Assembly: GCA_030446775.1 (NCBI GenBank) | Contig: JAUJMQ010000007.1 | Span: 5,569 to 69,568, forward strand | DNA length: 64,000 nucleotides | DNA from: Egibacteraceae bacterium | Lineage (GTDB): Bacteria > Actinomycetota > Nitriliruptoria > Euzebyales > Egibacteraceae | Reading direction: 5' to 3' | Part shown: positions 5,672 through 15,752 of the stretch, one piece after another | Numbering within the stretch: the stretch's first letter is position 1 | How the letters are laid out: each line of letters begins with the position of its first letter | Translations under genes and position numbers: made by a program | The notes under the pieces: generated by a model | The model's input: the letters and a program-made list of their open reading frames with translations, nothing else | What the model was told of the DNA's origin: nothing | The model's database searches: none

Positions 5672-8600
5672 CTACCCGGCGGCGGCTATCCGGCGTCGGG
5701 GCAGCTGCGGGCGTACGGGCGCTGCGCGCCGACGAGGGAGTTCCACTCCGACAGGGCAGCTGCGGGCGTACGGGCGCTGCGCGCCGACGAGGGAGTTCCA
5801 CTCCGACACGGTGAGGTTGCGGTTGGCGACGGTGCAGGCCCGCCGGCGCCAGGACTCGCGGTCGAGGTCCCACAGGATGATCCGCTGGTCCTCCGCGCCG
5901 GAGGCCAGCGCTCGGCCGTCGGGGCGGTAGGCCACGGTCCGGATGACCGACTCGTGCCCCGCCAGCGGCTCGCCGATCCGGACCCGCGAGGCCGCGTCCC
6001 ACAGGATGATCGTCCGATCCAGGCTCCCGGACGCGAACGTCGTCCCGTCGGGGCTGAACGCCAGAGCGAAGATGGGCCCGTCGTGGCTGGTCAGCGGCTC
6101 CCCCAGCGGGCGACCCGACTCCAGGTCCCAGACGTAGATCCGCCCGTCGTTCCCGCCGGAGGCGAGCACCCGCCCGTCGGGACTGAAGTCCAGCGTTCGC
6201 ACCGCCAGGTCGTGAGCCCTGAGCGGGGCACCGATGGGGCCCCCAGTCGTGACGTCCCACAGCCGCACGGTCCGGTCGTCGCCGGCGGAGGCCAACCTCG
6301 CGCCGTCCGGACTGAAGGCCACGGCAAGCACGGGCCCCTCGTGGCCGCGCAGGGGGCCGCCGCGCGGGCGCCCGGAGGGTATGTCTCGGAGGACGATCGC
6401 CCCCTTGTCGTCCACAGTGGCGAGCGTGCCGCCGTCCGGGCTGAGCGCTCCCGAAACGAGCGGCCGATCCCCGGGGAGGGCAACTGGCCGGGAATCGCGC
6501 CGCCCGCGGAAGTGCTGCAGGACGACGCTGCCGTCCTCGGCCCACGACACCACGCGTTGCTGGTCCGGCGTGAGCGTCACGCCGCTGACGGGCGCCTCGT
6601 GGCCACGCAGCCGTCGGCTCCCGGCCCGCCCGCCCTCGGGGTCCCACACCCGCAGGCTGCCGTCCTGAGCGCCCGAGACCAGCGTCCCGTCGGAGGAGAA
6701 CACGACGTCGCGTACCCAGTCGGCATGGCCGCCCAGCGGCCGCAGCAGCCCGGACGGCGCGACGGTGTCCCACAGCACGACGGTGCCGTCGTTGCTTCCC
6801 GACGCCAGCGTGCGACCATCCGGCGCGAACGCGACGCTGCGCACCGGGCCGCCGTGGCCATCCAGGGACGGCTCGACCTGCGCCCTCGTCTGCAGGTCCC
6901 ACAACACCACCCTGGAGCTGTCGGTGCCCGCCGCCAGCATGCGGCCGTCCGGGCGGTAGGTGACACTGCGGATCCGGTCGTCGTCGCCGAACAACGGTGC
7001 ACCCAGAGCCGTCCCGTCAGAGACGTTCCACAGCCGGATAGTCCCGTCGTCGCCACCGGAGGCGATCGTCCGGCCGTCGGGCGCGAAGGCCACCGTCCGC
7101 ACAGGTCCGGTGTGCCCCGTCAGCGGCGATCCGTGACGGCGACCGGTCTGGACGTCCCAGACCAGGATCACCCCGCCGGCACCCGCGGCGGCGACGAGGC
7201 GTCCGTCCGGGCTGAACGCCACGCTCGTGACCGGCGTGTCGAGGCCCGCGAGCGGCTCCCCGGACGGTCTGCCCGCGGCCAGGTCCCACAGGATGACGCT
7301 GCCGTCGTCGCCGCCGGAGGCCAGCACCCCGCCGTCGGGGTGCACCGCGATGGTCCGGACGGCGCCGACGTGGCCGCGCAGCGGCTCGCGGGACTCCCGG
7401 CGTGCCCGCACGTCCCAGGAGCGGATCGTCCCGTCGAGGCTGCCGGACAGCAGCGTGCTGCCCTCCGGGGTGAAGGCGACGGCCTCCACCGGTCCTGTGT
7501 GCCCGGCGAGGGGTTCACCCAGCCGCTGGCCGCCGTCGACCTCCCACAAGAAGACCGTGCCGTGATCGCTGCCGGTGGCCAGCAGCGTGCCGCCGGCGTC
7601 GAAGGCCACCGCGGGTGCCCGCCCCGCGTGGCCGTTGAGGAAGGCGCGGATGGCTCTGCTGCGATCGAGCCCGGCGAGCAGCGCGCTGTAGCCCTCGACG
7701 TGGTTGCGGTGACGCAACGACTCCAGCGCGAGCAGCAGGGAGCGGTCGAGCCGGTCGGCCAGCTCGTCGACGGCACGGGCGGCCAGGTAGCGGTCGGTGG
7801 CGACACTCGCCTGGAACCCGGCCCGTCGGCTCCACACGACGGCCTGCGAGCCGGCGACCAGCGACAGCACGAGAAGGACGGCGAAGCCCGTGGCCAGCCG
7901 GCGCATCCGCCGAGCGGTCCGCAGTCGCTGCGCGGCCTGCCTGCGCGCCTCCGACAGCTCCACCGCAGCAGCCTCACGGCTGGCCTCGAGGAAGTCGCAC
8001 TCCAGGGCCGTCAGCTCACCGACGTGCTGGTCATACCACGAGATGGCCGCGGCCAGCCTGGCTCCGCGGTACAGGGAGCCCGGGTCACGACCGAGCGCGT
8101 GCCAGTCATGGCTGTCCTCGGCGATCTGCCGCTGCACGCGCAGGGACTCCCTGTCGTCCTCGATCCACCGGCCCAGAGTGGGCCATCCGGCGATGAGCGC
8201 CTCGTGTGCCAGGTCGACCCTGGGACCCAGGTCACCTTCGCCGGCCGACAGGGTCAACAGTCGCGAAGCCGCGAGATGGCGCAACGTGCGGTCGAACAGC
8301 CGTGGGTCGTCGGCCGCGGCTCGCAGATGCTCCACCGGCTGCTGCCGGCGTGTGTCGTCGCGGCCGTCGCCGACCTGCACGAGCCGCAGCAGGATCCGCC
8401 GTGCCACCTCGCGTTCGGCCGGCGGCAGCTCGGCGAGCGTGGCGTCCGCCTTCGTCGCCAGCGCCACGGCCAGGCCGCTCACGCCGTCGCGGCCGAGCGA
8501 CTCGTAGCTGTCGAGGGTCAACCGGTGGCCGTCCCGGCGCTCCCACAGCAGGACCATCGTCTCCTGGACCAGCGGCAGCACACCGGGTTCCTGGGCGGCG

Positions 8601-10060
8601 TCGGCCAGCAGGCGCTCCAGCAGTGCGGGCTCGACCTCGACGCCGAGCTCTGCGGCCGGCGCCGCGATGGCGCGGCTGAGAGCGGGACCGTGCAGCGGTG
8701 TGACCTCGAACCGCTCGCCCTCCGTCAGCGGCCACAGCGGCGACTCCATGAGTTCGGGATAGAAGTCAGCGCGCATCGTGACCACGACGACGCACCGGCG
8801 GACCCGCCGCAAGCCACCCAGCGCCTCCAGGAACTCCGTCCGCTCGGTCCGGTCAGCCTGGGCGAACACCTCCTCGAGCTGATCGACGACGAGCAGCAGC
8901 CGTCGCGCAGGCCCCGTCGCGAGCAACGCGTCGACGCGCTGGGCCGCAACCAGCGGGTCGGTCAAGGTGGTGGCGTCGCCCAGACCGAGGGTAGTTCCCA
9001 GAGCGGCGGGACCGGCGAAGACCAGCGAGGACTTGCCGGAGCCCGAGGGACCGACGATCAGCACGAAGCGGTGGTGGCGGAGGCGCTGAGCAAGGTCGGC
9101 GACCTCCTTCTCGCGGCCGCGGAAGAACCTCTTGTCGCCTTCGCCGAAGGTCGCCATCCCGGGGTAGGGGCAGTCGAGCTCCCCCGCGGGTGGGGCCACC
9201 GTGGGCGCGGTGATCGGTCCGGACGACGCCGGCTGCCAGTCGAGCTCGGGCGACTGCCGCAAAATCCGCTCGTACAGCCTCTGCAACTGCGGGCTGGGGT
9301 CGATGCCGAGCTCGTCGCCGAGTTCCCGCAGCGCCGCCTGGTAGGCGGCCAGGGCTTCGGCCTGCCGCTGACAGCGGTACAGGGCCAGCATGAGCTGGGC
9401 TCGCATCCGTTCCCGGAGGGGGTTTGCGCGAACCAGCTCCTGCAGGGGTCCCGCCATCTCGGCGTGATCGCCCAGCAGCAGCGCCGCCTCGGCGTGGTCC
9501 TCGATGGCGTCCAGTCGCAGGCTCTCCAGCCGGTCGACCTCGGCTGTCGCGAACGGTTCGTCGGCCAAGTCCGCCAGCGGCCTGCCACGCCACAGGCCGA
9601 GAGCCTCCGCCAGGCGTACTCGCGCCTCGCCTGCGGCCCCGCGCACCAGGGCGGCGCGTCCCTCGCTGACGAGCCGTTCGAACCGTCGCAGGTCGATCTG
9701 GTCGGGGTCGACGCGGAGGGCGTAGCCGGGACGGCGGGTCTCCAACACCAGCGCGCCTGCGGACCCGAGCGCGCGTCGCAGGTGCGACACGTAGGTGCGT
9801 ACGACCGCCTGTGCGGTCTCCGGAGGACTGCCTGCCCAGACCTCCTCGATGAGCCAGTCGCTGGCCACAACCGCCGGCGCATGCATGACCAGCAACGCGA
9901 GGACGGAGCGTTGCTTCACGCCACCAAGGTTCAGTAGGCGGCCTCCCGCCGCCACCTCTACCGGGCCCAGGAGCCGGAACTCCAGCCGGCCCGCCGCAAC
10001 GGTCGGTGGGACGTCCGACGTTGGGGTCAGCGAGGTCACGTCAACGCCTCCGCCTGCCAT
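5672..10060 (-). CDS. SARP (OmpR-type wHTH + BTAD) - STAND P-loop NTPase - 14x WD40 regulator, 1462 aa
   Basis: ATG 10060. The N-terminus LEFRLLGPVEV...RTYVSHLRRAL plus LWRGRPLADL...AYQAALRELGDELGIDPSPQL is a SARP/BTAD module. It is followed by CPYPGMATFGEGDKRFFRGREKE and Walker A GPSGSGKSS, with Walker B LLLVVDQLEE. I counted 14 WD40 units (GH..V..VAF.PDG..LASGS.D.T..LWD). The C-terminal tail is altered by the 55-bp duplication. Confidence 0.9.
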   Translation of the reverse strand: MAGGGVDVTSLTPTSDVPPTVAAGRLEFRLLGPVEVAAGGRLLNLGGVKQRSVLALLVMHAPAVVASDWLIEEVWAGSPPETAQAVVRTYVSHLRRALGSAGALVLETRRPGYALRVDPDQIDLRRFERLVSEGRAALVRGAAGEARVRLAEALGLWRGRPLADLADEPFATAEVDRLESLRLDAIEDHAEAALLLGDHAEMAGPLQELVRANPLRERMRAQLMLALYRCQRQAEALAAYQAALRELGDELGIDPSPQLQRLYERILRQSPELDWQPASSGPITAPTVAPPAGELDCPYPGMATFGEGDKRFFRGREKEVADLAQRLRHHRFVLIVGPSGSGKSSLVFAGPAALGTTLGLGDATTLTDPLVAAQRVDALLATGPARRLLLVVDQLEEVFAQADRTERTEFLEALGGLRRVRRCVVVVTMRADFYPELMESPLWPLTEGERFEVTPLHGPALSRAIAAPAAELGVEVEPALLERLLADAAQEPGVLPLVQETMVLLWERRDGHRLTLDSYESLGRDGVSGLAVALATKADATLAELPPAEREVARRILLRLVQVGDGRDDTRRQQPVEHLRAAADDPRLFDRTLRHLAASRLLTLSAGEGDLGPRVDLAHEALIAGWPTLGRWIEDDRESLRVQRQIAEDSHDWHALGRDPGSLYRGARLAAAISWYDQHVGELTALECDFLEASREAAAVELSEARRQAAQRLRTARRMRRLATGFAVLLVLSLVAGSQAVVWSRRAGFQASVATDRYLAARAVDELADRLDRSLLLALESLRHRNHVEGYSALLAGLDRSRAIRAFLNGHAGRAPAVAFDAGGTLLATGSDHGTVFLWEVDGGQRLGEPLAGHTGPVEAVAFTPEGSTLLSGSLDGTIRSWDVRARRESREPLRGHVGAVRTIAVHPDGGVLASGGDDGSVILWDLAAGRPSGEPLAGLDTPVTSVAFSPDGRLVAAAGAGGVILVWDVQTGRRHGSPLTGHTGPVRTVAFAPDGRTIASGGDDGTIRLWNVSDGTALGAPLFGDDDRIRSVTYRPDGRMLAAGTDSSRVVLWDLQTRAQVEPSLDGHGGPVRSVAFAPDGRTLASGSNDGTVVLWDTVAPSGLLRPLGGHADWVRDVVFSSDGTLVSGAQDGSLRVWDPEGGRAGSRRLRGHEAPVSGVTLTPDQQRVVSWAEDGSVVLQHFRGRRDSRPVALPGDRPLVSGALSPDGGTLATVDDKGAIVLRDIPSGRPRGGPLRGHEGPVLAVAFSPDGARLASAGDDRTVRLWDVTTGGPIGAPLRAHDLAVRTLDFSPDGRVLASGGNDGRIYVWDLESGRPLGEPLTSHDGPIFALAFSPDGTTFASGSLDRTIILWDAASRVRIGEPLAGHESVIRTVAYRPDGRALASGAEDQRIILWDLDRESWRRRACTVANRNLTVSEWNSLVGAQRPYARSCPVGVELPRRRAAPVRPQLPRRRIAAAG
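5699..5808. repeat. Perfect 55-bp tandem duplication (2 copies) inside the 3-prime end of the SARP-STAND-WD40 gene
   Basis: 5699-5753 and 5754-5808 are identical (gggcagctgcgggcgtacgggcgctgcgcgccgacgagggagttccactccgaca). Confidence 0.95.
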
Positions 10061-10297
10061 CAGCTCCCCATGGCTGACGGTCGCGGCAGGGTATGCGGAC
10101 GACTTTCGGCTGACCACGGATCGGCGGGGACGACCCGCGCGGTTGAGCGCAGAGAGCCTGCCCCGCCGTGTCACCGCGCAGTGGGCGCACGCTCGCGGCG
10201 ACGCGCTCGTCCAAGACCCCCGACTTTCGGCTCGAGCGTCCCGGCGGCCGTGGACCCCTTGCCCGGTCTGCGGCCTTTGGTGGCCTCCTCCACGCCG

Positions 10298-10330
10298 CTT
10301 CAACACCGGCTCTGCGGTCGTTCAACGCGC
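10298..10330 (+). promoter_or_regulatory. Three 11-nt direct-repeat units (cTTCAacaccg / gctctgcggtc / GTTCAacgcgc), PHO-box/SARP-type candidate operator
   Basis: The site lies in the divergent region between the SARP-STAND gene (start 10060) and the NHL gene (start 10454). It shares an extended module (10264-10330) with the phoD upstream region. Confidence 0.4.
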
Positions 10331-10453
10331 CTGGTCCAGCGTCAGCTCACCGTACGGCGCGGGGCCTGCGTGCCCTCGGGACCGGACGGTGCGCTGGCCC
10401 CCGTGGGGCCGCCGCGGCGGGAGATGTCGCGTGACGAACGTGGGAGGCACACC

Positions 10454-12335
10454 ATGGATGCTGCGAACAGGGCCATCGTCCGGCTGTCGCCCGGTCGCCA
10501 GGCCGCATGGGAACCGGCGAACCAGCAGTGGCTGCGTCGGCTGCCGGTGTGGCTGTGGGCGGTGGCGGTGGCGGTCGCGTCGCTGGGCGGGGTCGCTCCC
10601 GGGGCGGAGGCACAGACGACCGCGGCCTCGGTGACGGCCGCGCCAACCTGGGTGCGGCAGATCGGCGGGTCGGGACGGGCGGAGATGTATCCGTCGGGGG
10701 TGGAGGTCGCGCGGGGCTCGCGGGGGGCGGCGAGCGGCCAGCGTGGGTGGGTGTTCGTCGCCGACACCGGCAACGACCGGGTTGCCGCCTACGCCGGGAG
10801 CGGGCGGTTGTTATGGCGGTCCGGGATCCGCGGCCGCGGCAGGGGCCAGTTCTCCGAGCCGCGTGACGTGGCGTATCTCAACGGCAGGGTGTACGTGGCG
10901 GACACCGGCAACAACCGCGTGCAGGTGCTGGACGCCGCGACGGGTCGGTGGCTGGCGACGTGGCCGACCCGGTTCGGCGCGGCGATGGGAATCACGGCGG
11001 GCAGGAACGGGGCGGGGGCGTGGCGGCTGGTGGTGGCCGACGGCAAGCACAGCCGCATGTCGATCCACGCCCCGGCCGATACCACGCGCACCTATGTGGG
11101 GTCGTTCGGCAAGAGCGACGGGCAGCTCAACGAGCCGCGCGACGGCGCGTTCGACAGCAAGGGCAACCTGTACGTGGCGGACTTCCGCAACCACCGGGTG
11201 GCGAAGTTCGACGCGTCGTACCGCTGGGTGCGCAGCTGGGGACGGCTCGGGGGTGATCCCGGTCAGTTCCGCGGTCCGTACGGCATCGAGGTCGATGACG
11301 CCGATGGGGTGTACGTCGCCGACGCGAACAACCAGCGCATCCAGAAGCTGACGACCAGCGGCGCGTTCGTGCGGTCGTGGGGGTCGGCCGGCACGCGCGC
11401 CGGACAGCCTGCGGCAGCTGCGCAACGTCGCGGTGGGTGGGGGCGCGAACCCCGATGTGTTCGCCGTGGACTTGTGGGGCTACAAGGCCGAGCAGTGGGG
11501 GCAGGGCGGCGCGCACAAGCGCACCTTCGCCGGGCAGGCGCCGCCGCTGGGGCGCTTCAACAAGCCGTACGGGCTGGCGTTGGGCGGGGGCAAGGTCTAC
11601 GTCGCTGACACCGTCCACCACCGCATCCAGCGCTTCAGCGGCGGCGGGCTGTTCGAGTCGTCGTTCGGCGACCGCGGCTGGGCGCCCAACCTCAACGGGT
11701 TGAACTGGCCGCGCGGGGTGGCCTACGACGCCGCCCGCAACATGGTGTGGGTCGCTGACACCAAGAACTGGCGGGTCACCGAGTTCACGTCGGCCGGGGC
11801 GCCGACGGGGGTCACGTACGGCAAGCTCGGCGCGGGCGACGGCGGCCTGAACTGGCCGTCGACGATCGCGCCGGTGGGCAACGGCGTGGTCATCGCCGAC
11901 ACCTACAACCACCGCATCGTGCGCTGGGATCCGGACACCGGAACCCGCTGGACCGCCACGGGCTTCAAGTACCCCAAGGACGTCAAGGTCCACGGCTCCA
12001 GCGTGTACGTCGCCGACGCGCTGAACCGGCGCATCGTGACCCTGCGGCTGTCCGACGGGGCGCGGCTGAGCGCCTTCGGCGCCGGCGTGCTGCACCGGGT
12101 CGAAGGGGTCGTGGTCGCCTCCGACGGCGACGTCTGGGTGACCGACACGGCAGCCAACCGCCTGGTCGAGTTCAGCCCCTCGGGTGCGGTCAAGCAGACC
12201 TTCGGGTCCAAGGGCGCTGCCCACGGGCAGTTCTGGGAGCCGACCAACCTGCAGCTGCGACGCGACTCGACCGGTGACCTGCTGTACGTCGCCGACACGT
12301 TCAACGACCGCATCGAAGTGTTCCGCATCCAGTAG
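10454..12335 (+). pseudogene. Secreted NHL-repeat (beta-propeller) protein, reading frame broken near 11405
   Basis: ATG 10454 follows GGGAGG. Signal peptide: WLWAVAVAVASLGGVAPGAEA. There are repeated NHL units (GQFSEPRDVAY..GRVYVADTGNNRVQVL, GQLNEPRDGAFDSKGNLYVADFRNHRVAKF and others). ORF 10070..11608 and ORF 11433..12335 join if one nt is removed at ggacagCctgcgg, giving ..GTRAGQLRQLRNVAVGG... Confidence 0.75.
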
Positions 12336-12362
12336 AACCCGCGGTCGGATCAAAGCACGATC

Positions 12363-13075
12363 GTGAGCACCACCTTCACGGCAGCCCTTCCCCAGTGGCT
12401 GGGGGCCCCGCCCGTCGCCACGGCGGCGGCCATCCTCGCAGCTGCCCCCGCCGGCGTCGGGGGGGCGACGCCGGCGGGGGCGTTCGCCACCGCGTACGGC
12501 TTCCGCGGTCAAGCGGGGGTCTATCCGTACGGGATGGACCGCAACGACGCCAACGCCATCTTGGGTGGGCGGCGTCTGGAACGACGGGTCAAGCCGTTCG
12601 CCCATGAGCGGGTCACCGGCGGGCGGGACGGTCTTCACCGGCAGGGAGGTTCGAGCTGCCCAACGACCGCATCGAGGTGTTCGACGTCGAGGCCGACCCG
12701 CGGCGGGGCAACAGCGAGCGCACCCGGCCAACGAGGCGGACTCGGGGGTGGACCACTACCGCGCCAACGGGACATGAGTGAGCTCAACCGTCCCACGGGG
12801 TCATCCTGAGCCTCGCGAAGCGTCGACTGTACGTCAGCTACTTGTACAACCGCCGCGTTGCCCGGATCCGGCTCAGCGTGGATGGATACCCGACCGCGAC
12901 CGCCGACCTGGTGCCCACGGGCGGCGACACGGCGACGGGTTGGCCAGACGATCAACCCCGCGCCACTGGCCTTCGATCGTCGCGACGGCAAGCCGTACAT
13001 CAGCGACTTCAACCGGCGCGCGTACGCCTACATCATCAGCGTGAGCCCTGGTTGTGGGTGCAACCGGGGTAAGCC
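12363..13075 (+). pseudogene. Degenerate second NHL/SMP-30-like repeat gene, fragments in all three frames
   Basis: The start is signal-peptide-like (VSTTFTAALPQWLGAPPVATAAAILAAAPA). Repeat relics follow in different frames: FELPNDRIEVFDV, LYVSYLYNRRVARIRLSV, PLAFDRRDGKPYISDFNRRAYAYIISV. No single frame is open across the region. Confidence 0.45.
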
Positions 13076-13418
13076 GGCGCCTTCAGGAATCCGGTCGGTT
13101 CAGCCAGACCTCCACGATGAGGGGTCGTGGACGTCGAGAAGTGACTCCTCCCGCTCCCCGCTGTGCTTGCAACCTATGCCTGACGGTCGTCGCAGCGAAC
13201 GCCCCGGACACGTCGGTCACCAGGGAAACCGGCGAGCAGGACATACCGGGTAGCAGCGGAGAGCCGCTCGGGGCGCGCCCTCGCAAAGCGGCTCCACAGC
13301 TCAGCACGTCTGGCGCCGGGCGGCAATGCAAGCCCCGGCTGACCGTCTGTGTGTGGCCTGTCAGCGCTCCGTCGGTCTGCGCCTCTTGCGCCCCCGACCG
13401 CCGGTCCGTTCCACGCCG

Positions 13419-13462
13419 GTTCAACGCCGGTTCAACGCCGGCTCTGCCGTCCTTCAACACCA
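13419..13462 (+). promoter_or_regulatory. Four contiguous 11-nt direct-repeat units (GTTCAacgccg x2, gctctgccgtc, cTTCAacacca), PHO-box-like operator upstream of phoD-like gene
   Basis: The 11-nt phasing is exact and the GTTCA core matches the Streptomyces PhoP direct-repeat-unit core. The site is 155-198 nt upstream of ATG 13617 of a Tat-secreted PhoD-family phosphatase. Confidence 0.5.
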
Positions 13463-13616
13463 CTCGCGCACTGTCGCTCCGCAGCACCTGACGCGGCCGG
13501 CCTCGCCAGACCGCCCGGGGGCTGGGGGGACATCGCGGACACGGCGGCTGGCGGACAGGGGGCGCCAGCCGCCGAGGCGGGAGGTGCGGCCTAGCCGCAC
13601 CCCAGGAGGAACACCC

Positions 13617-14951
13617 ATGGCGGAGAGGAAACGAACGGGTCGTACAGGCGTCTCCCGACGCGAGTTCCTGCGCGCGACAGCAGCACTGGCCGCAGGATCC
13701 ACGCTGCGAGGTGGCGGTCCGGACGCAGCAGCAGCCCGCCCGCGAGAAGTCGGCGCAGCAGACGATGAGTCCGCGGCTCCACTTCCGGACGGTGCGTCCG
13801 CAACGCTCACCGACGGCGGGATGACCATTACTGCCAAAGCCACCGGCCCGGCACGCATCAAGCTCCTCGTCTGGCCGACGGCCCACCCGGCATCGATCAC
13901 CGAAACGGCATGGAAGAACACGAATGCTTCTCAGGCGGCGACCTTCAAGCTCAACGCAGTGGGCACGGCGGGGCACGGCTGGAGCTGGCGTGCGGTGATC
14001 CAGGATCAGGCCGCTGTCGGCGCGGCAACGCAGGACGCCGTCCGTACGGTTCCTTGGAGACCCAAGAAGGGCGTGAACGCCAACTTCAGGTTTGTCGTGA
14101 GCTCTTGCATGGTGCTGGGTCTGCCGGCTCCTGCGCTGCGTGTGGCTGTCAGTGCCAACCCCGTCTTCTTCGGCATGATCGGGGATATGGGTTACGTCGA
14201 CACCAAAAAGCGGGCGGCCCAGGACTACAGGTTGTACTCGAACCAGTTCAGGGACTTCCTCAACCACGCAGACTCCAGGCCTCTGCTCGCCAAGACCGCG
14301 TTGGTCGGCATGCAAGACGACCATGACTATGGTCAGGATGAATGCGACCGGACGAGCTGGAAGCCCTATGCCGCGCAGGCGTTCGCGGATCTCATCCCAG
14401 GCGCGGTCGCTACCGGAATCAGCTACCGGAAGTGGTCGGTTGGCGCCGCGGACTTCTTCCTCCTCGACAATCGCCGCTTCCAAGATCCCAAGGAGGGCCC
14501 GTTCGAGAACGGGCAGTATCACAGCGTGCTCGGGAACAGACAGCGCACCTGGCTTACCAACAACCTCGCTGCCTCGACCGCACGCGTGAAGTTCGTCCTG
14601 GCGCCCATGACCTTCACTTGGTACTGGTCCGACGGCGAGAAGAAGGCGCTCGTGAACTTCATCGAGCGGAACGTCAGCGGGAAAGTGATCTTCTGCACCG
14701 GTGACAAGCACGCCGCTGCGCTGGTCCGACCGAGCACTAAGACGTACCAGATGCTCGGTGGTCCGATCAACATTGATGTGAAGAGTCCGACGCATTACCG
14801 TCCAAACGTGCTTTGGACTGAGAACGGAACGGGAACGCCCTATAGCAACGTCATCGGCTTGGTGCATGTAGCCACAACGAGTAACCGGGTGCTGCTCCGC
14901 TTGATGCGCGAGGACGGCGTCGAGCTGGCACGTGTTGCGGTGCCGATCTGA
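13617..14951 (+). CDS. phoD: Tat-secreted PhoD-family alkaline phosphatase/phosphodiesterase
   Basis: ATG 13617 follows AGGAGGA. Twin-arginine signal: GVSRREFLRATAALAAGS. Metallophosphatase-type motifs: GDMGY, MQDDHDYGQDE, FCTGDKHAAAL. GC3 is visibly lower than in the neighbours (AGG, AGA, TTG and T-ending codons). Confidence 0.8.
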   Translation: MAERKRTGRTGVSRREFLRATAALAAGSTLRGGGPDAAAARPREVGAADDESAAPLPDGASATLTDGGMTITAKATGPARIKLLVWPTAHPASITETAWKNTNASQAATFKLNAVGTAGHGWSWRAVIQDQAAVGAATQDAVRTVPWRPKKGVNANFRFVVSSCMVLGLPAPALRVAVSANPVFFGMIGDMGYVDTKKRAAQDYRLYSNQFRDFLNHADSRPLLAKTALVGMQDDHDYGQDECDRTSWKPYAAQAFADLIPGAVATGISYRKWSVGAADFFLLDNRRFQDPKEGPFENGQYHSVLGNRQRTWLTNNLAASTARVKFVLAPMTFTWYWSDGEKKALVNFIERNVSGKVIFCTGDKHAAALVRPSTKTYQMLGGPINIDVKSPTHYRPNVLWTENGTGTPYSNVIGLVHVATTSNRVLLRLMREDGVELARVAVPI

Positions 14952-15010
14952 GGCAGCGTCGAACCGGCCGTCCCAGGGTTTGGCGTCCGTCGAGGTGAAG
15001 GCGACGACGC

Positions 15011-15026
15011 GGTCCGACGGCGGACC
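15011..15026 (+). terminator. Weak hairpin downstream of phoD (ggtccg acgg cggacc, then gacgTTTgc)
   Basis: A 6-bp stem with a 4-nt loop lies 60 nt after the stop, with only a short T tract. Confidence 0.25.
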
Positions 15027-15070
15027 GACGTTTGCACCAAGATGACCGGGCGAGATGCTATGGTGCTGCC

Positions 15071-15331
15071 ATGCGCACGACGGTCCGGATCGACGACGAG
15101 CTGTACCGCACGCTGAAGGAGCGGGCAGCACGGACGGGACGCACGGTCGGCGAGATCGTCGAGGACGCGATCCGGCGATCGTTCGCCGCCGCTGACGTGA
15201 GCAGCGACGAGCCGCTGCCGCCGCTCCCGGTCCACGGGGGCAGCGGGGTGCTGCCCGGTGTCGACCTCACCAGCAACGCGGCGTTGCGCGACCTGATGGA
15301 CGGTGACGAGCCCGTCGATGCGCTGCGTTGA
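15071..15331 (+). CDS. vapB: VapB-type antitoxin (ribbon-helix-helix)
   Basis: MRTTVRIDDELYRTLKERAARTGRTVGEIVEDAIRRS is a typical RHH/CopG N-terminus. The gene overlaps the downstream PIN gene by 14 nt. Confidence 0.8.
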   Translation: MRTTVRIDDELYRTLKERAARTGRTVGEIVEDAIRRSFAAADVSSDEPLPPLPVHGGSGVLPGVDLTSNAALRDLMDGDEPVDALR

Positions 15332-15752
15332 CGTCAACGTCCTCGTCTACGCCCATCGACCGGAATCTCCCGATCACCATGACTATCGCGCATGGCTCGA
15401 CGACGCGCGCACCGGCGACGAGCCCCTGGGCGTCAGCGATCTGGTGCTGTCGGGATTCCTCCGGATCGTGACCCATCCCCGCGTGTTCCGCGACCCGAGT
15501 CCGCTGGACACCGCGCTGGACTTCGCCGAGGCGTTGCGGACCGCACCCAGCGCGCTGACGGTCGCCCCCGGGTCGCGGCACTGGGCCATCTTCGCGCGGC
15601 TGTGTCGCTCCGCGGACGCCCGCGGCAACCTGGTGCCCGACGCCTACCTCGCGGCCATGGCGATGGAGCGGGGCGCAACGTGGTACTCCGCGGACCGCAG
15701 CTTCGCGCGGTTCTCCGGTCTCCGGTGGCGCCACCCGCTCGAGGCGCCGTGA
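15318..15752 (+). CDS. vapC: VapC-type PIN-domain ribonuclease toxin
   Basis: MRCVDVNVLVYAH (first acidic residue), DLVLSGFLRIVTHP, VPDAYLAAMAMERG and SADRSFARF are PIN signature positions. The ATG at 15318 lies inside the vapB 3-prime end. Confidence 0.8.
   Translation: MRCVDVNVLVYAHRPESPDHHDYRAWLDDARTGDEPLGVSDLVLSGFLRIVTHPRVFRDPSPLDTALDFAEALRTAPSALTVAPGSRHWAIFARLCRSADARGNLVPDAYLAAMAMERGATWYSADRSFARFSGLRWRHPLEAP

What the first reader, a model, noticed from the sequence alone, without database searches (positions are those of the whole stretch)
13373..13462. PHO-box-like array of four phased 11-nt GTTCA units upstream of a Tat-PhoD phosphatase
The four units gttcaacgccg, gttcaacgccg, gctctgccgtc and cttcaacacca (13419-13462) are exactly 11-nt phased direct repeats with the GTTCA core of Streptomyces PhoP direct-repeat units. 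They sit about 155 nt upstream of a PhoD-family secreted phosphatase, a classic Pho-regulon member. SARP regulators also bind 11-nt phased direct repeats. In S. coelicolor AfsR and PhoP share overlapping sites at some promoters, and a SARP-STAND regulator is encoded 3.3 kb away.
Basis: partly seen in the sequence, partly recalled or inferred. Interest (0 to 1): 0.6.

Follow-up and report, generated by a model that had tools for sequence, protein, structure and literature searches.

The report
SARP-type TTCAAC repeat promoter box
The 11-base repeats upstream of the secreted PhoD-like phosphatase gene are real, recur upstream of the neighbouring gene, and look more like the binding site of the adjacent AfsR-like SARP regulator than a phosphate (PhoP) box, which makes this an ordinary kind of actinobacterial promoter element in a little-studied lineage.

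Summary
There are five phased 11-nt units at 13408-13462, not four. They end 154 nt before the ATG (13617) of a Tat-signal PhoD-family gene.

A second copy of the module lies at 10287-10330, upstream of a secreted NHL-repeat gene and divergent from the SARP-nSTAND1-WD40 gene. An earlier scan note on this same window (e1-3871074) flagged it, and I verified it. The 28-nt core occurs exactly twice in the 2.4-Mb assembly. It is absent from the pstS and phoU/regX3 promoters.

I derived this lineage's Pho box from 16 pstS promoters of relatives. It is GTTCA[C/T]C. All five module cores are TTCAAC, with G or C in front.

Phased TTCAAC arrays also occur at seven loci in two related genomes. In all nine arrays a [C/T/G]AnnnT hexamer follows the last unit after exactly 6 nt. 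Three of the seven abut SARP genes, and a fourth lies 4.3 kb from one of those genes. Three arrays precede tiny LuxR-type regulator genes. None precedes a Pho gene.

Best reading (about 0.55): a SARP box replaces the -35 element of two promoters that the adjacent AfsR-like regulator activates. PhoP/RegX3 co-binding at the GTTCA units is not excluded. The kind is known; this is a new member. Binding was not tested, and no transcript data were available.

The parts
13408..13462 (+). TTCAAC-box array upstream of the PhoD-like gene. Five phased 11-nt units: GTTCCACGCCG, GTTCAACGCCG, GTTCAACGCCG, GCTCTGCCGTC, CTTCAACACCA.
13469..13474 (+). Candidate -10 hexamer CACTGT, 6 nt after the last unit. Inferred; no TSS data.
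   Evidence: Sequence. The same spacing is seen in 9 of 9 arrays. The afsS -10 is also CACTGT (PMC10936776).
13617..14951 (+). Tat-signal PhoD-family metallophosphatase gene (444 aa). About 62% G+C against 73.6% for the genome. No orthologue in 40 relatives.
10287..10330 (+). Second copy of the module, with four units: CCTCCACGCCG, CTTCAACACCG, GCTCTGCGGTC, GTTCAACGCGC. It lies in the SARP/NHL divergent intergenic region.
10337..10342 (+). Candidate -10 hexamer CAGCGT, 6 nt after the last unit (inferred).
10454..12335 (+). Secreted NHL-repeat beta-propeller gene. It reads as two overlapping frames (10454-11608 and 11352-12335), which implies a frameshift or a one-base assembly error near 11400.
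5672..10060 (-). Large SARP: OmpR-type DNA-binding domain plus BTAD plus nSTAND1 NTPase plus WD40 repeats. It is the candidate protein that binds the boxes. Its recognition helix is RTYVSHLRR, against RTYASRLRK in AfsR.

Best explanation
The array is a SARP box. It consists of direct repeats of the heptamer TTCAAC(R), spaced 11 or 22 bp apart on one face of the helix. The repeats take the place of a -35 element in two weak promoters, P(NHL) at about 10287-10342 and P(phoD-like) at about 13408-13474.

The adjacent AfsR-like regulator (5672-10060) carries an OmpR-type DNA-binding domain and a BTAD, gated by its STAND NTPase and WD40 sensor. It most likely binds the repeats side by side and recruits RNA polymerase, as shown structurally for AfsR at the afsS promoter. 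That would switch on two secreted proteins, an NHL beta-propeller and a Tat-exported PhoD-family phosphatase.

Shown here: the repeats, their duplication, their fixed distance to a -10-like hexamer, their recurrence beside SARP genes in relatives, and their difference from the lineage's Pho box.

Inferred: which protein binds, that binding activates transcription, the transcription start, and the signal. The two identical units in the phoD-like copy look like a recent one-unit slippage expansion.
For: 1. The module is restricted to this locus. The 28-nt core occurs exactly twice in the assembly, both copies on the + strand, upstream of + strand genes next to the SARP gene. The next best site has 7 mismatches, and a relaxed scan found nothing convincing.

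2. In-register identity is 33/38 (87%) inside the module and 28-30% upstream, which is the random level. It is 47% over the next 80 nt. That pattern fits constraint on the repeats.

3. TTCAAC-N5-TTCAAC gives 12 hits in 48 genomes of the order, and the reversed-pattern control gives 0. Nine hits lie in three G+C-rich genomes: G000, G003 (6 loci) and G017.

4. In all 9 arrays the last 11-nt unit is followed after exactly 6 nt by xAnnnT: CACTGT, CAGCGT, GACGAT, TAACCT, CAATGT, CAGGCT, CAGTCT, CAGATT, CATCCT. The chance of this is about 0.018 per site at this base composition (my arithmetic).

5. The geometry matches SARP promoters. Published repeats are 11 or 22 bp apart (heptamers with 4-15 nt spacers), the 3' repeat lies about 8 bp from the -10, and the -35 is poor. 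The afsS promoter has -35 TTCAGC inside the upstream repeat and -10 CACTGT (PMC10936776, PMC11301090, PMC10972967). The match is within 1 bp.

6. Arrays are adjacent to SARP genes. The G000 NHL copy lies 227 nt upstream of the SARP start, in divergent orientation. The G017:C40 array abuts a divergent 951-aa SARP. The G003:C542 array lies about 86 nt upstream of a 279-aa SARP. G003:C416 has one site about 40 nt upstream of a 948-aa SARP and another 4.3 kb away.

7. Downstream genes in relatives are regulators, not Pho genes. Small LuxR/GerE proteins of 64 aa and 78 aa follow the arrays at G003:C168 and G017:C40, and a similarly small one follows at G003:C185. A small SARP follows at C542. This resembles the AfsR-afsS and PimR-pimM cascades.

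8. The SARP keeps AfsR's DNA-contact residues R87, T88, S91 and R94. The base-contacting R92 is H here. The array-adjacent G017:C40 SARP also has R, S and H at these positions.
Against: The genome is about 60% complete, so further copies, including copies at Pho genes, could be missed.

In both G000 copies the unit that would sit at -40 to -30 is GCTCTGC(C/G)GTC, not TTCAAC. AfsR and the G003 arrays use two adjacent repeats there. This conserved odd unit is unexplained.

The G000 SARP is only 49% identical in its DNA-binding domain to the G017:C40 SARP. It does not belong to that SARP's tight subfamility, which comprises G045:C121, G003:C94, C189 and C416. Three members of that subfamily have no array within 1.5 kb.

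The two G000 copies may descend from one duplication, so they are not fully independent.

The phoD-like copy has three consecutive GTTCx units, and the gene family is a classic Pho target. The pstS promoters of the lineage share a similar layout (strong unit, weak unit, CA unit, 5 nt, TACGGT). PhoP/RegX3 binding therefore remains plausible.
Confidence: 0.55

Rival explanations
1. The array is a PHO box. The RegX3/PhoP-type response regulator encoded next to phoU binds the GTTCA units and makes the phoD-like gene, and perhaps the NHL gene, inducible by phosphate starvation. It could act alone or in competition with the SARP, as PhoP and AfsR do at afsS, pstS and phoRP in S. coelicolor.
For: The phoD-like copy has three consecutive units starting GTTC(C/A)AC. 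The genome encodes pstSCAB, phoU and a regulator closest to M. tuberculosis RegX3 (E 2e-88), with a PhoR/PnpS-like kinase. In pstS promoters of 16 genomes (own plus 15 relatives), CGTTCA is the most widespread 6-mer (15/16), and 11-nt phased GTTCA pairs occur in five. One proximal pstS box reads GTTCAACTTCC (L034). The strong units of the phoD-like array sit within 1 nt of where the strong pstS unit sits relative to the -10. PhoD is a validated PhoP target in S. coelicolor (PMC2275107), and AfsR binds PHO boxes there (PMC6988585).
Against: The module is absent from the pstS and phoU/regX3 promoters of this genome. Position 6 is A in 5 of 5 cores, against 1 of 38 in the lineage's Pho boxes. Position 1 is C in 2 of 5 cores here and in most units of related arrays, whereas it is G in 33 of 38 Pho-box cases and is essential for S. 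coelicolor PhoP (PMC2275107). The NHL copy has only one GTTCA unit. Related TTCAAC arrays precede LuxR or SARP genes, not Pho genes. Nine canonical phoD genes of relatives whose start could be placed show no phased GTTCA pairs. The phoD-like protein is a remote family member (E 0.007 to B. subtilis PhoD).
Confidence: 0.25
2. The array has no regulatory function. It is a slippage-generated tandem repeat, or a leftover of a duplicated NHL promoter that now happens to lie upstream of a horizontally acquired phoD-like gene.
For: Short tandem repeats are very common in this genome (922 TRF rows). Two units are identical, as after recent slippage. A decayed NHL-like gene lies between the two copies at 12363-13060. 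The phoD-like gene has foreign composition and no orthologue in relatives. No array lies upstream of five homologues in other organisms.
Against: Identity is concentrated in the repeat block (87%), while upstream flanks are at the random level. Both copies keep the same 6-nt distance to an xAnnnT hexamer, as do seven independent arrays in relatives. Period-11 arrays that contain A/T are rare.
Confidence: 0.12

Closest known systems
afs box of the afsS promoter, bound by the large SARP AfsR (Streptomyces coelicolor)
   Same: Both have 11-bp direct repeats with a TTCA core overlapping a poor -35 element (TTCAGC in afsS). The 11-nt unit ends 6 nt before a weak -10 (CACTGT in afsS, and CACTGT here at 13469). 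The regulator is a large SARP with a STAND/NOD NTPase encoded next to the target. The box resembles a PHO box.
   Different: The core here is TTCAAC. In this window the two promoter-proximal cores are 22 bp apart, with a conserved non-consensus unit (GCTCTGCSGTC) between them. The regulator has nSTAND1 plus WD40 instead of NB-ARC plus TPR, and H replaces the base-contacting R92. The targets are secreted enzymes, not a small regulator. The host is an Euzebyales/Egibacteraceae MAG, not Streptomyces. Binding was not tested.
Streptomyces PHO box (PhoP direct repeat units, G(G/T)TCAYYYR(G/C)G)
   Same: The units are 11 nt long, consecutive and start GTTCA. The array lies next to the core promoter and upstream of a PhoD-family gene. 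The same type of box (GTTCA[C/T]C) is conserved at pstS promoters of this lineage.
   Different: Positions 6, 8 and 9 depart from the consensus. Position 1 is not fixed. The module is missing from the Pho promoters of the same genome and is tied to SARP genes in relatives.
PimR (SARP-LAL) operator upstream of pimM (PAS-LuxR), with heptameric repeats and 4-nt spacers
   Same: Both have three heptamers at 11-bp period. A SARP drives a LuxR-type regulator gene, as the arrays in G003:C168, G003:C185 and G017:C40 appear to do.
   Different: The heptamer sequence differs. The PimR site does not overlap the -35. In this window the targets are not regulators.

Membership tests
SARP box (SARP-activated promoter) | Heptameric direct repeats spaced 11 or 22 bp apart (spacers of 4-15 nt) | tested here: met
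   TTCAAC(R) cores start at 13420, 13431 and 13453, and at 10299 and 10321. The spacings are 11 and 22. The rule is stated in PMC10936776 and PMC10972967.
SARP box (SARP-activated promoter) | The 3' repeat lies about 8 bp from the -10 and overlaps or replaces a poor -35 | tested here: inconclusive
   An xAnnnT hexamer lies exactly 6 nt after the last 11-nt unit in 9 of 9 arrays. This is within 1 bp of the afsS geometry. No TSS data exist, so the -10 is inferred.
SARP box (SARP-activated promoter) | A SARP gene is encoded nearby (cluster-situated regulator) | tested here: met
   The G000 SARP starts 227 nt from the NHL copy. G017:C40, G003:C542 and G003:C416 arrays abut SARP genes.
SARP box (SARP-activated promoter) | SARP binds the repeats and activates transcription | not testable with these tools
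   This needs EMSA or footprinting and reporter assays.
Streptomyces-type PHO box (PhoP/RegX3 operator) | At least two consecutive 11-nt direct repeat units | tested here: met
Streptomyces-type PHO box (PhoP/RegX3 operator) | Core matches GTTCAYY, with G1 and T2 required | tested here: inconclusive
   GTTCA is present in two units of the phoD-like copy (plus a GTTCC unit) and one unit of the NHL copy. Position 6 is A in 5 of 5 cores, against 1 of 38 in the lineage's pstS boxes. Position 1 is C in 2 of 5. The consensus is from PMC2275107.
Streptomyces-type PHO box (PhoP/RegX3 operator) | The same motif occurs at other Pho-regulon promoters of the genome (pstS, phoU/phoP) | tested here: not met
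   The pstS promoter has one GTTCACCCGCG unit plus degenerate units. The phoU/regX3 spacer has none. The TTCAAC module occurs only at the two sites of this window. About 40% of the genome is unassembled.
Streptomyces-type PHO box (PhoP/RegX3 operator) | PhoP binding and phosphate-dependent expression | not testable with these tools
PhoD-family phosphatase (PF09423), Tat-exported (the downstream gene) | Pfam PhoD domain above the gathering score, and a twin-arginine signal | tested here: met
   50.2 bits against a cut-off of 27, with the match covering profile positions 58-268 only. The SRREFL motif has RR invariant in homologues, and GDMGY, DDHDYG and GDKHA motifs are conserved. Similarity to B. 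subtilis PhoD 2YEQ is weak (E 0.007).

The most novel reading that the evidence does not exclude
The phoD-like promoter is a dual-input integrator. The shared TTCAAC module takes the SARP, while the extra upstream GTTCx units, present only in the phoD-like copy, recruit RegX3/PhoP. A WD40-sensing STAND regulator and phosphate starvation would then jointly control a secreted phosphatase. This would extend the AfsR/PhoP competition known from Streptomyces to the class Nitriliruptoria and to a new SARP architecture.
Probability: 0.2. Interest if true: 0.5.

Novelty: new member of a known kind. Interest (0 to 1): 0.35.

Why it matters
SARP regulators and their boxes are known almost only from Streptomyces antibiotic clusters. 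This case gives a testable operator consensus, (G/C)TTCAAC(R)C at 11 or 22 bp, followed after 6 nt by xAnnnT. It applies to SARPs of an uncultured Euzebyales/Egibacteraceae lineage that carries up to 15 SARP paralogues per genome.

It links a WD40-type STAND SARP to two secreted enzymes. It also shows how close a SARP box can sit to the Pho box of the same lineage, differing mainly at one core position. That is the situation in which regulator cross-talk arises.

Practically, it warns against calling Pho regulon members from GTTCA repeats alone. The significance is modest, because the mechanism is the established SARP one.

Tried and rejected
- **RNA element.** Rfam at permissive E-values over 12000-14000 gave no hit. 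Folding the putative 5' leaders gave z = -1.0 and +0.45, so neither is more stable than expected from composition.
- **Promoter and terminator scan.** The sigma-70 consensus and intrinsic terminator scan of 12300-13700 found nothing. That is expected for actinobacterial promoters.
- **Conservation upstream of homologues.** The phoD-like gene has no orthologue in 40 relatives. Five homologues at 29-49% identity in other organisms have no array upstream.
- **Public collections.** The module was searched for in genome and metagenome collections, with 0 hits.
- **Other GTTCA pair-like sites in the genome.** They lie beside an aldo-keto reductase, a sulfotransferase and unknown genes, not Pho genes.
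- **Canonical phoD genes of relatives.** They have no phased GTTCA pairs. Six of nine have a single GTTCA within 400 nt.
- **ECF-sigma promoter reading.** I considered TCAAC as the -35 and CGTC as the -10 and rejected it. The spacings are 11 or 22 nt, not 16-17.
- **TTCAAC pairs in G026 and G049.** These genomes have no SARP hits, and the sequence context is A/T-rich, so I treated the hits as chance.

Full report
**Observation**

Window 13408-13462 holds five 11-nt units in exact phase: GTTCCACGCCG, GTTCAACGCCG, GTTCAACGCCG, GCTCTGCCGTC and CTTCAACACCA. The repeat finder reports three copies at spacing 11, 11. TRF reports period 11, 3.1 copies and score 61.

The downstream gene starts at ATG 13617, preceded by aggagg at 13604-13609. 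It encodes 444 aa with the signal MAERKRTGRTGVSRREFLRATAALAAGS and a partial but significant Pfam PhoD match (50.2 bits against a cut-off of 27). The RR of the Tat motif and the metallophosphatase-like motifs GDMGY, DDHDYG and GDKHA are conserved in its closest homologues, which are 44-48% identical and come from metagenomes. This supports the long start rather than the 376-aa gene call on record.

The gene has about 62% G+C, against 73.6% for the genome. It has no orthologue in 40 relatives. Its similarity to B. subtilis PhoD is weak (E 0.007). It is therefore a remote, probably acquired member of the PhoD family.

**Organism and Pho system**

The window lies in a 2.4-Mb MAG of 78 contigs that is about 60% complete. 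Its PstS is closest to MAGs titled Euzebyales and Egibacteraceae, which agrees with an earlier scan note.

Contig C16 carries pstSCAB and phoU. Divergent from phoU is a response regulator closest to M. tuberculosis RegX3 (E 2e-88), followed by a PhoR/PnpS-like kinase.

**The lineage's Pho box**

I collected the pstS upstream regions of 16 genomes, the own genome plus 15 relatives. CGTTCA is the most widespread 6-mer (15/16), and GTTCACC occurs in 11/16. Phased 11-nt pairs occur in five genomes.

The promoters share one layout: [GTTCxxx][GTTCA(C/T)C....][weak unit][..CA.C....], then 5 nt, then TACGGT. The own promoter reads CGACACCTTGC GTTCACCCGCG GCCCGCCGGCG TGACACCGGCC CTGGC TACGGT.

In these regions TTCA is preceded by G in 33 of 38 cases. 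It is followed by CC in 21 cases, TC in 9 and AC in 1. The Pho box here is therefore the Streptomyces type, whose published consensus is G(G/T)TCAYYYR(G/C)G with the first seven positions informative (PMC2275107).

**A second copy**

An earlier first-stage note on this window (e1-3871074) claimed a related module near 10264-10330. I verified it. Positions 10287-10330 read CCTCCACGCCG CTTCAACACCG GCTCTGCGGTC GTTCAACGCGC.

The pattern TTCAACRCCGGCTCTGCSGTCSTTCAAC occurs exactly twice in the assembly, and the next best site has 7 mismatches. The best local alignment of the two upstream regions is an ungapped 38-nt block at 33/38 identity. Its score is 51, against 22.5 +/- 2.7 for shuffles.

Measured in register, identity is 87% in the block and 28-30% upstream, which is the random level. 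It is 47% over the following 80 nt. The phoD-like copy equals the NHL copy plus one extra unit, and its two identical units suggest a recent slippage.

Both copies face + strand genes. The first gene is a secreted NHL-repeat beta-propeller gene with ATG at 10454. This copy lies 227 nt upstream of, and divergent from, the start (ATG 10060) of a 1,462-aa protein. That protein has an OmpR-type DNA-binding domain, BTAD, nSTAND1 NTPase and WD40 repeats.

In both copies the last unit is followed after 6 nt by CA..GT: CACTGT at 13469 and CAGCGT at 10337.

**PhoP or SARP?**

The module is not at the pstS or phoU/regX3 promoters of this genome. All five of its cores are TTCAAC, preceded by G three times and C twice. 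They therefore depart from the Pho box at the position that is C or T in 30 of 38 Pho-box cases, and at the G that S. coelicolor PhoP requires (PMC2275107).

I then searched 48 genomes of the order for TTCAAC-N5-TTCAAC. There were 12 hits and none for the reversed control. Nine of the hits are in three G+C-rich genomes: G000, G003 (six loci) and G017.

Every one of the nine arrays has 2-3 phased cores (TTCAAC, some with one mismatch), or cores 22 bp apart, followed after exactly 6 nt by xAnnnT. The seven hexamers in relatives are GACGAT, TAACCT, CAATGT, CAGGCT, CAGTCT, CAGATT and CATCCT. At this base composition an A and a T at fixed positions have a chance of about 0.018 per site (my arithmetic). 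These are therefore real promoters of one class.

The genomic contexts of these arrays are as follows.

| Array | Context |
|---|---|
| G017:C40 | Abuts a divergent 951-aa SARP; precedes a 78-aa LuxR/GerE gene |
| G003:C542 | About 86 nt upstream of a 279-aa SARP |
| G003:C416 | One site about 40 nt upstream of a 948-aa SARP, another 4.3 kb away |
| G003:C168 | Precedes a 64-aa LuxR-type gene |
| G003:C185 | Precedes a similarly small LuxR-type gene |
| G003:C62 | Follows a phosphofructokinase gene |
| G003:C102 | Follows an HxlR-type regulator gene |

No array is next to a Pho gene. G003 has 15 SARP loci in 5.5 Mb. Windows of 10 kb around them cover about 3% of the genome, yet two of its six arrays fall inside such windows (my arithmetic).

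**Comparison with known SARP promoters**

Published SARP sites are direct repeats 11 or 22 bp apart (heptamers with 4-15 nt spacers). The 3' repeat lies about 8 bp from the -10 and overlaps a poor -35.

In the afsS promoter the 22-bp afs box spans -40 to -19. The -35 is TTCAGC inside the upstream repeat, and the -10 is CACTGT. Two SARP protomers bind side by side and contact sigma region 4 and the RNA polymerase core (PMC10936776, PMC11301090, PMC10972967).

The arrays here fit that geometry within 1 bp. AfsR and PhoP are known to share PHO-box-like sites, with different preferences at single positions (PMC6988585).

The G000 SARP aligns to AfsR (PDB 8HVR, E 2e-40). It keeps the DNA-contact residues R87, T88, S91 and R94, while the base-contacting R92 is H. 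That position varies among 38 paralogues examined. The array-adjacent G017:C40 SARP also has R, S and H at the equivalent positions.

The two proteins are nevertheless only 49% identical in this domain. The G000 SARP is not part of that SARP's tight subfamily, so this point is only suggestive.

**Conclusion**

The array is best read as a SARP box that substitutes for the -35 element of two promoters controlled by the adjacent AfsR-like regulator (confidence about 0.55).

PhoP/RegX3 binding, alone or in competition, stays open (about 0.25). The phoD-like copy has three consecutive GTTCx units, the gene family is a classic Pho target, and the pstS promoters have a comparable layout.

A functionless repeat is unlikely (about 0.12).

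**Unexplained**

The conserved non-consensus unit GCTCTGC(C/G)GTC sits between the two promoter-proximal cores in both G000 copies. The arrays in relatives and the afs box have a second repeat at that position.

**Limits**

- About 40% of the genome is missing.
- The two G000 copies may share ancestry.
- The -10 assignments are inferred from conservation of spacing only.

Noticed in passing
window 11352-11608: The NHL-repeat gene reads as two overlapping frames (10454-11608 and 11352-12335), both with NHL repeats. This implies a frameshift near 11400. It is either a pseudogene or a one-base assembly error of the kind another note reports for this window.
   Followed up: partly
window 12363-13060: The 1.28-kb 'empty' stretch between the NHL gene and the array holds a decayed NHL-like gene. 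It has a signal-like start (VSTTFTAALPQWLG...) and fragments such as NDRIEVFDVE, LYVSYLYNRRVARIRL and KPYISDFNRRAYAYII in different frames.
   Followed up: partly
window 13542-13574: A perfect 12-bp inverted repeat (CGGCGGCTGGCG, 9 nt, CGCCAGCCGCCG) lies in the putative 5' leader of the phoD-like gene. The leader as a whole is not unusually stable (z = -1.0). There is no Rfam hit.
   Followed up: partly
window 13617-14951: The phoD-like gene has about 62% G+C against 73.6% for the genome, a GC3 near 0.76, and no orthologue in 40 relatives. It was probably acquired horizontally. The gene call on record (376 aa) starts at an internal Met and drops the Tat signal.
   Followed up: yes
L088 (G003:C168) 1714-2141; L106 (G017:C40) 9690-10017; L103 (G003:C185) 9897-10163: TTCAAC arrays in relatives sit upstream of tiny stand-alone LuxR/GerE HTH genes (64 aa and 78 aa in the first two, 70% identical to each other). 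One of them lies next to a large SARP. The arrangement recalls AfsR-afsS and PimR-pimM cascades.
   Followed up: partly
L005 (G000:C16:44000-63000) 8230-8386, and L031-L049: The pstS promoters of this order share a conserved architecture: GTTCA(C/T)C units, two degenerate units, 5 nt, then CCTACGGT. This gives a usable lineage-specific Pho-box and -10 model.
   Followed up: yes
window 15303-15752: A PIN-domain gene (149 aa) lies just downstream of the phoD-like gene. The short ORF at 14999-15331 in front of it could be its antitoxin partner.
   Followed up: no
G000:C16:142089-142119 (outside the window): This is the only other perfect period-11 tandem repeat in the assembly that contains A/T: TGGTGGGCAAC, 2.8 copies. 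It may be another helical-phase operator.
   Followed up: no
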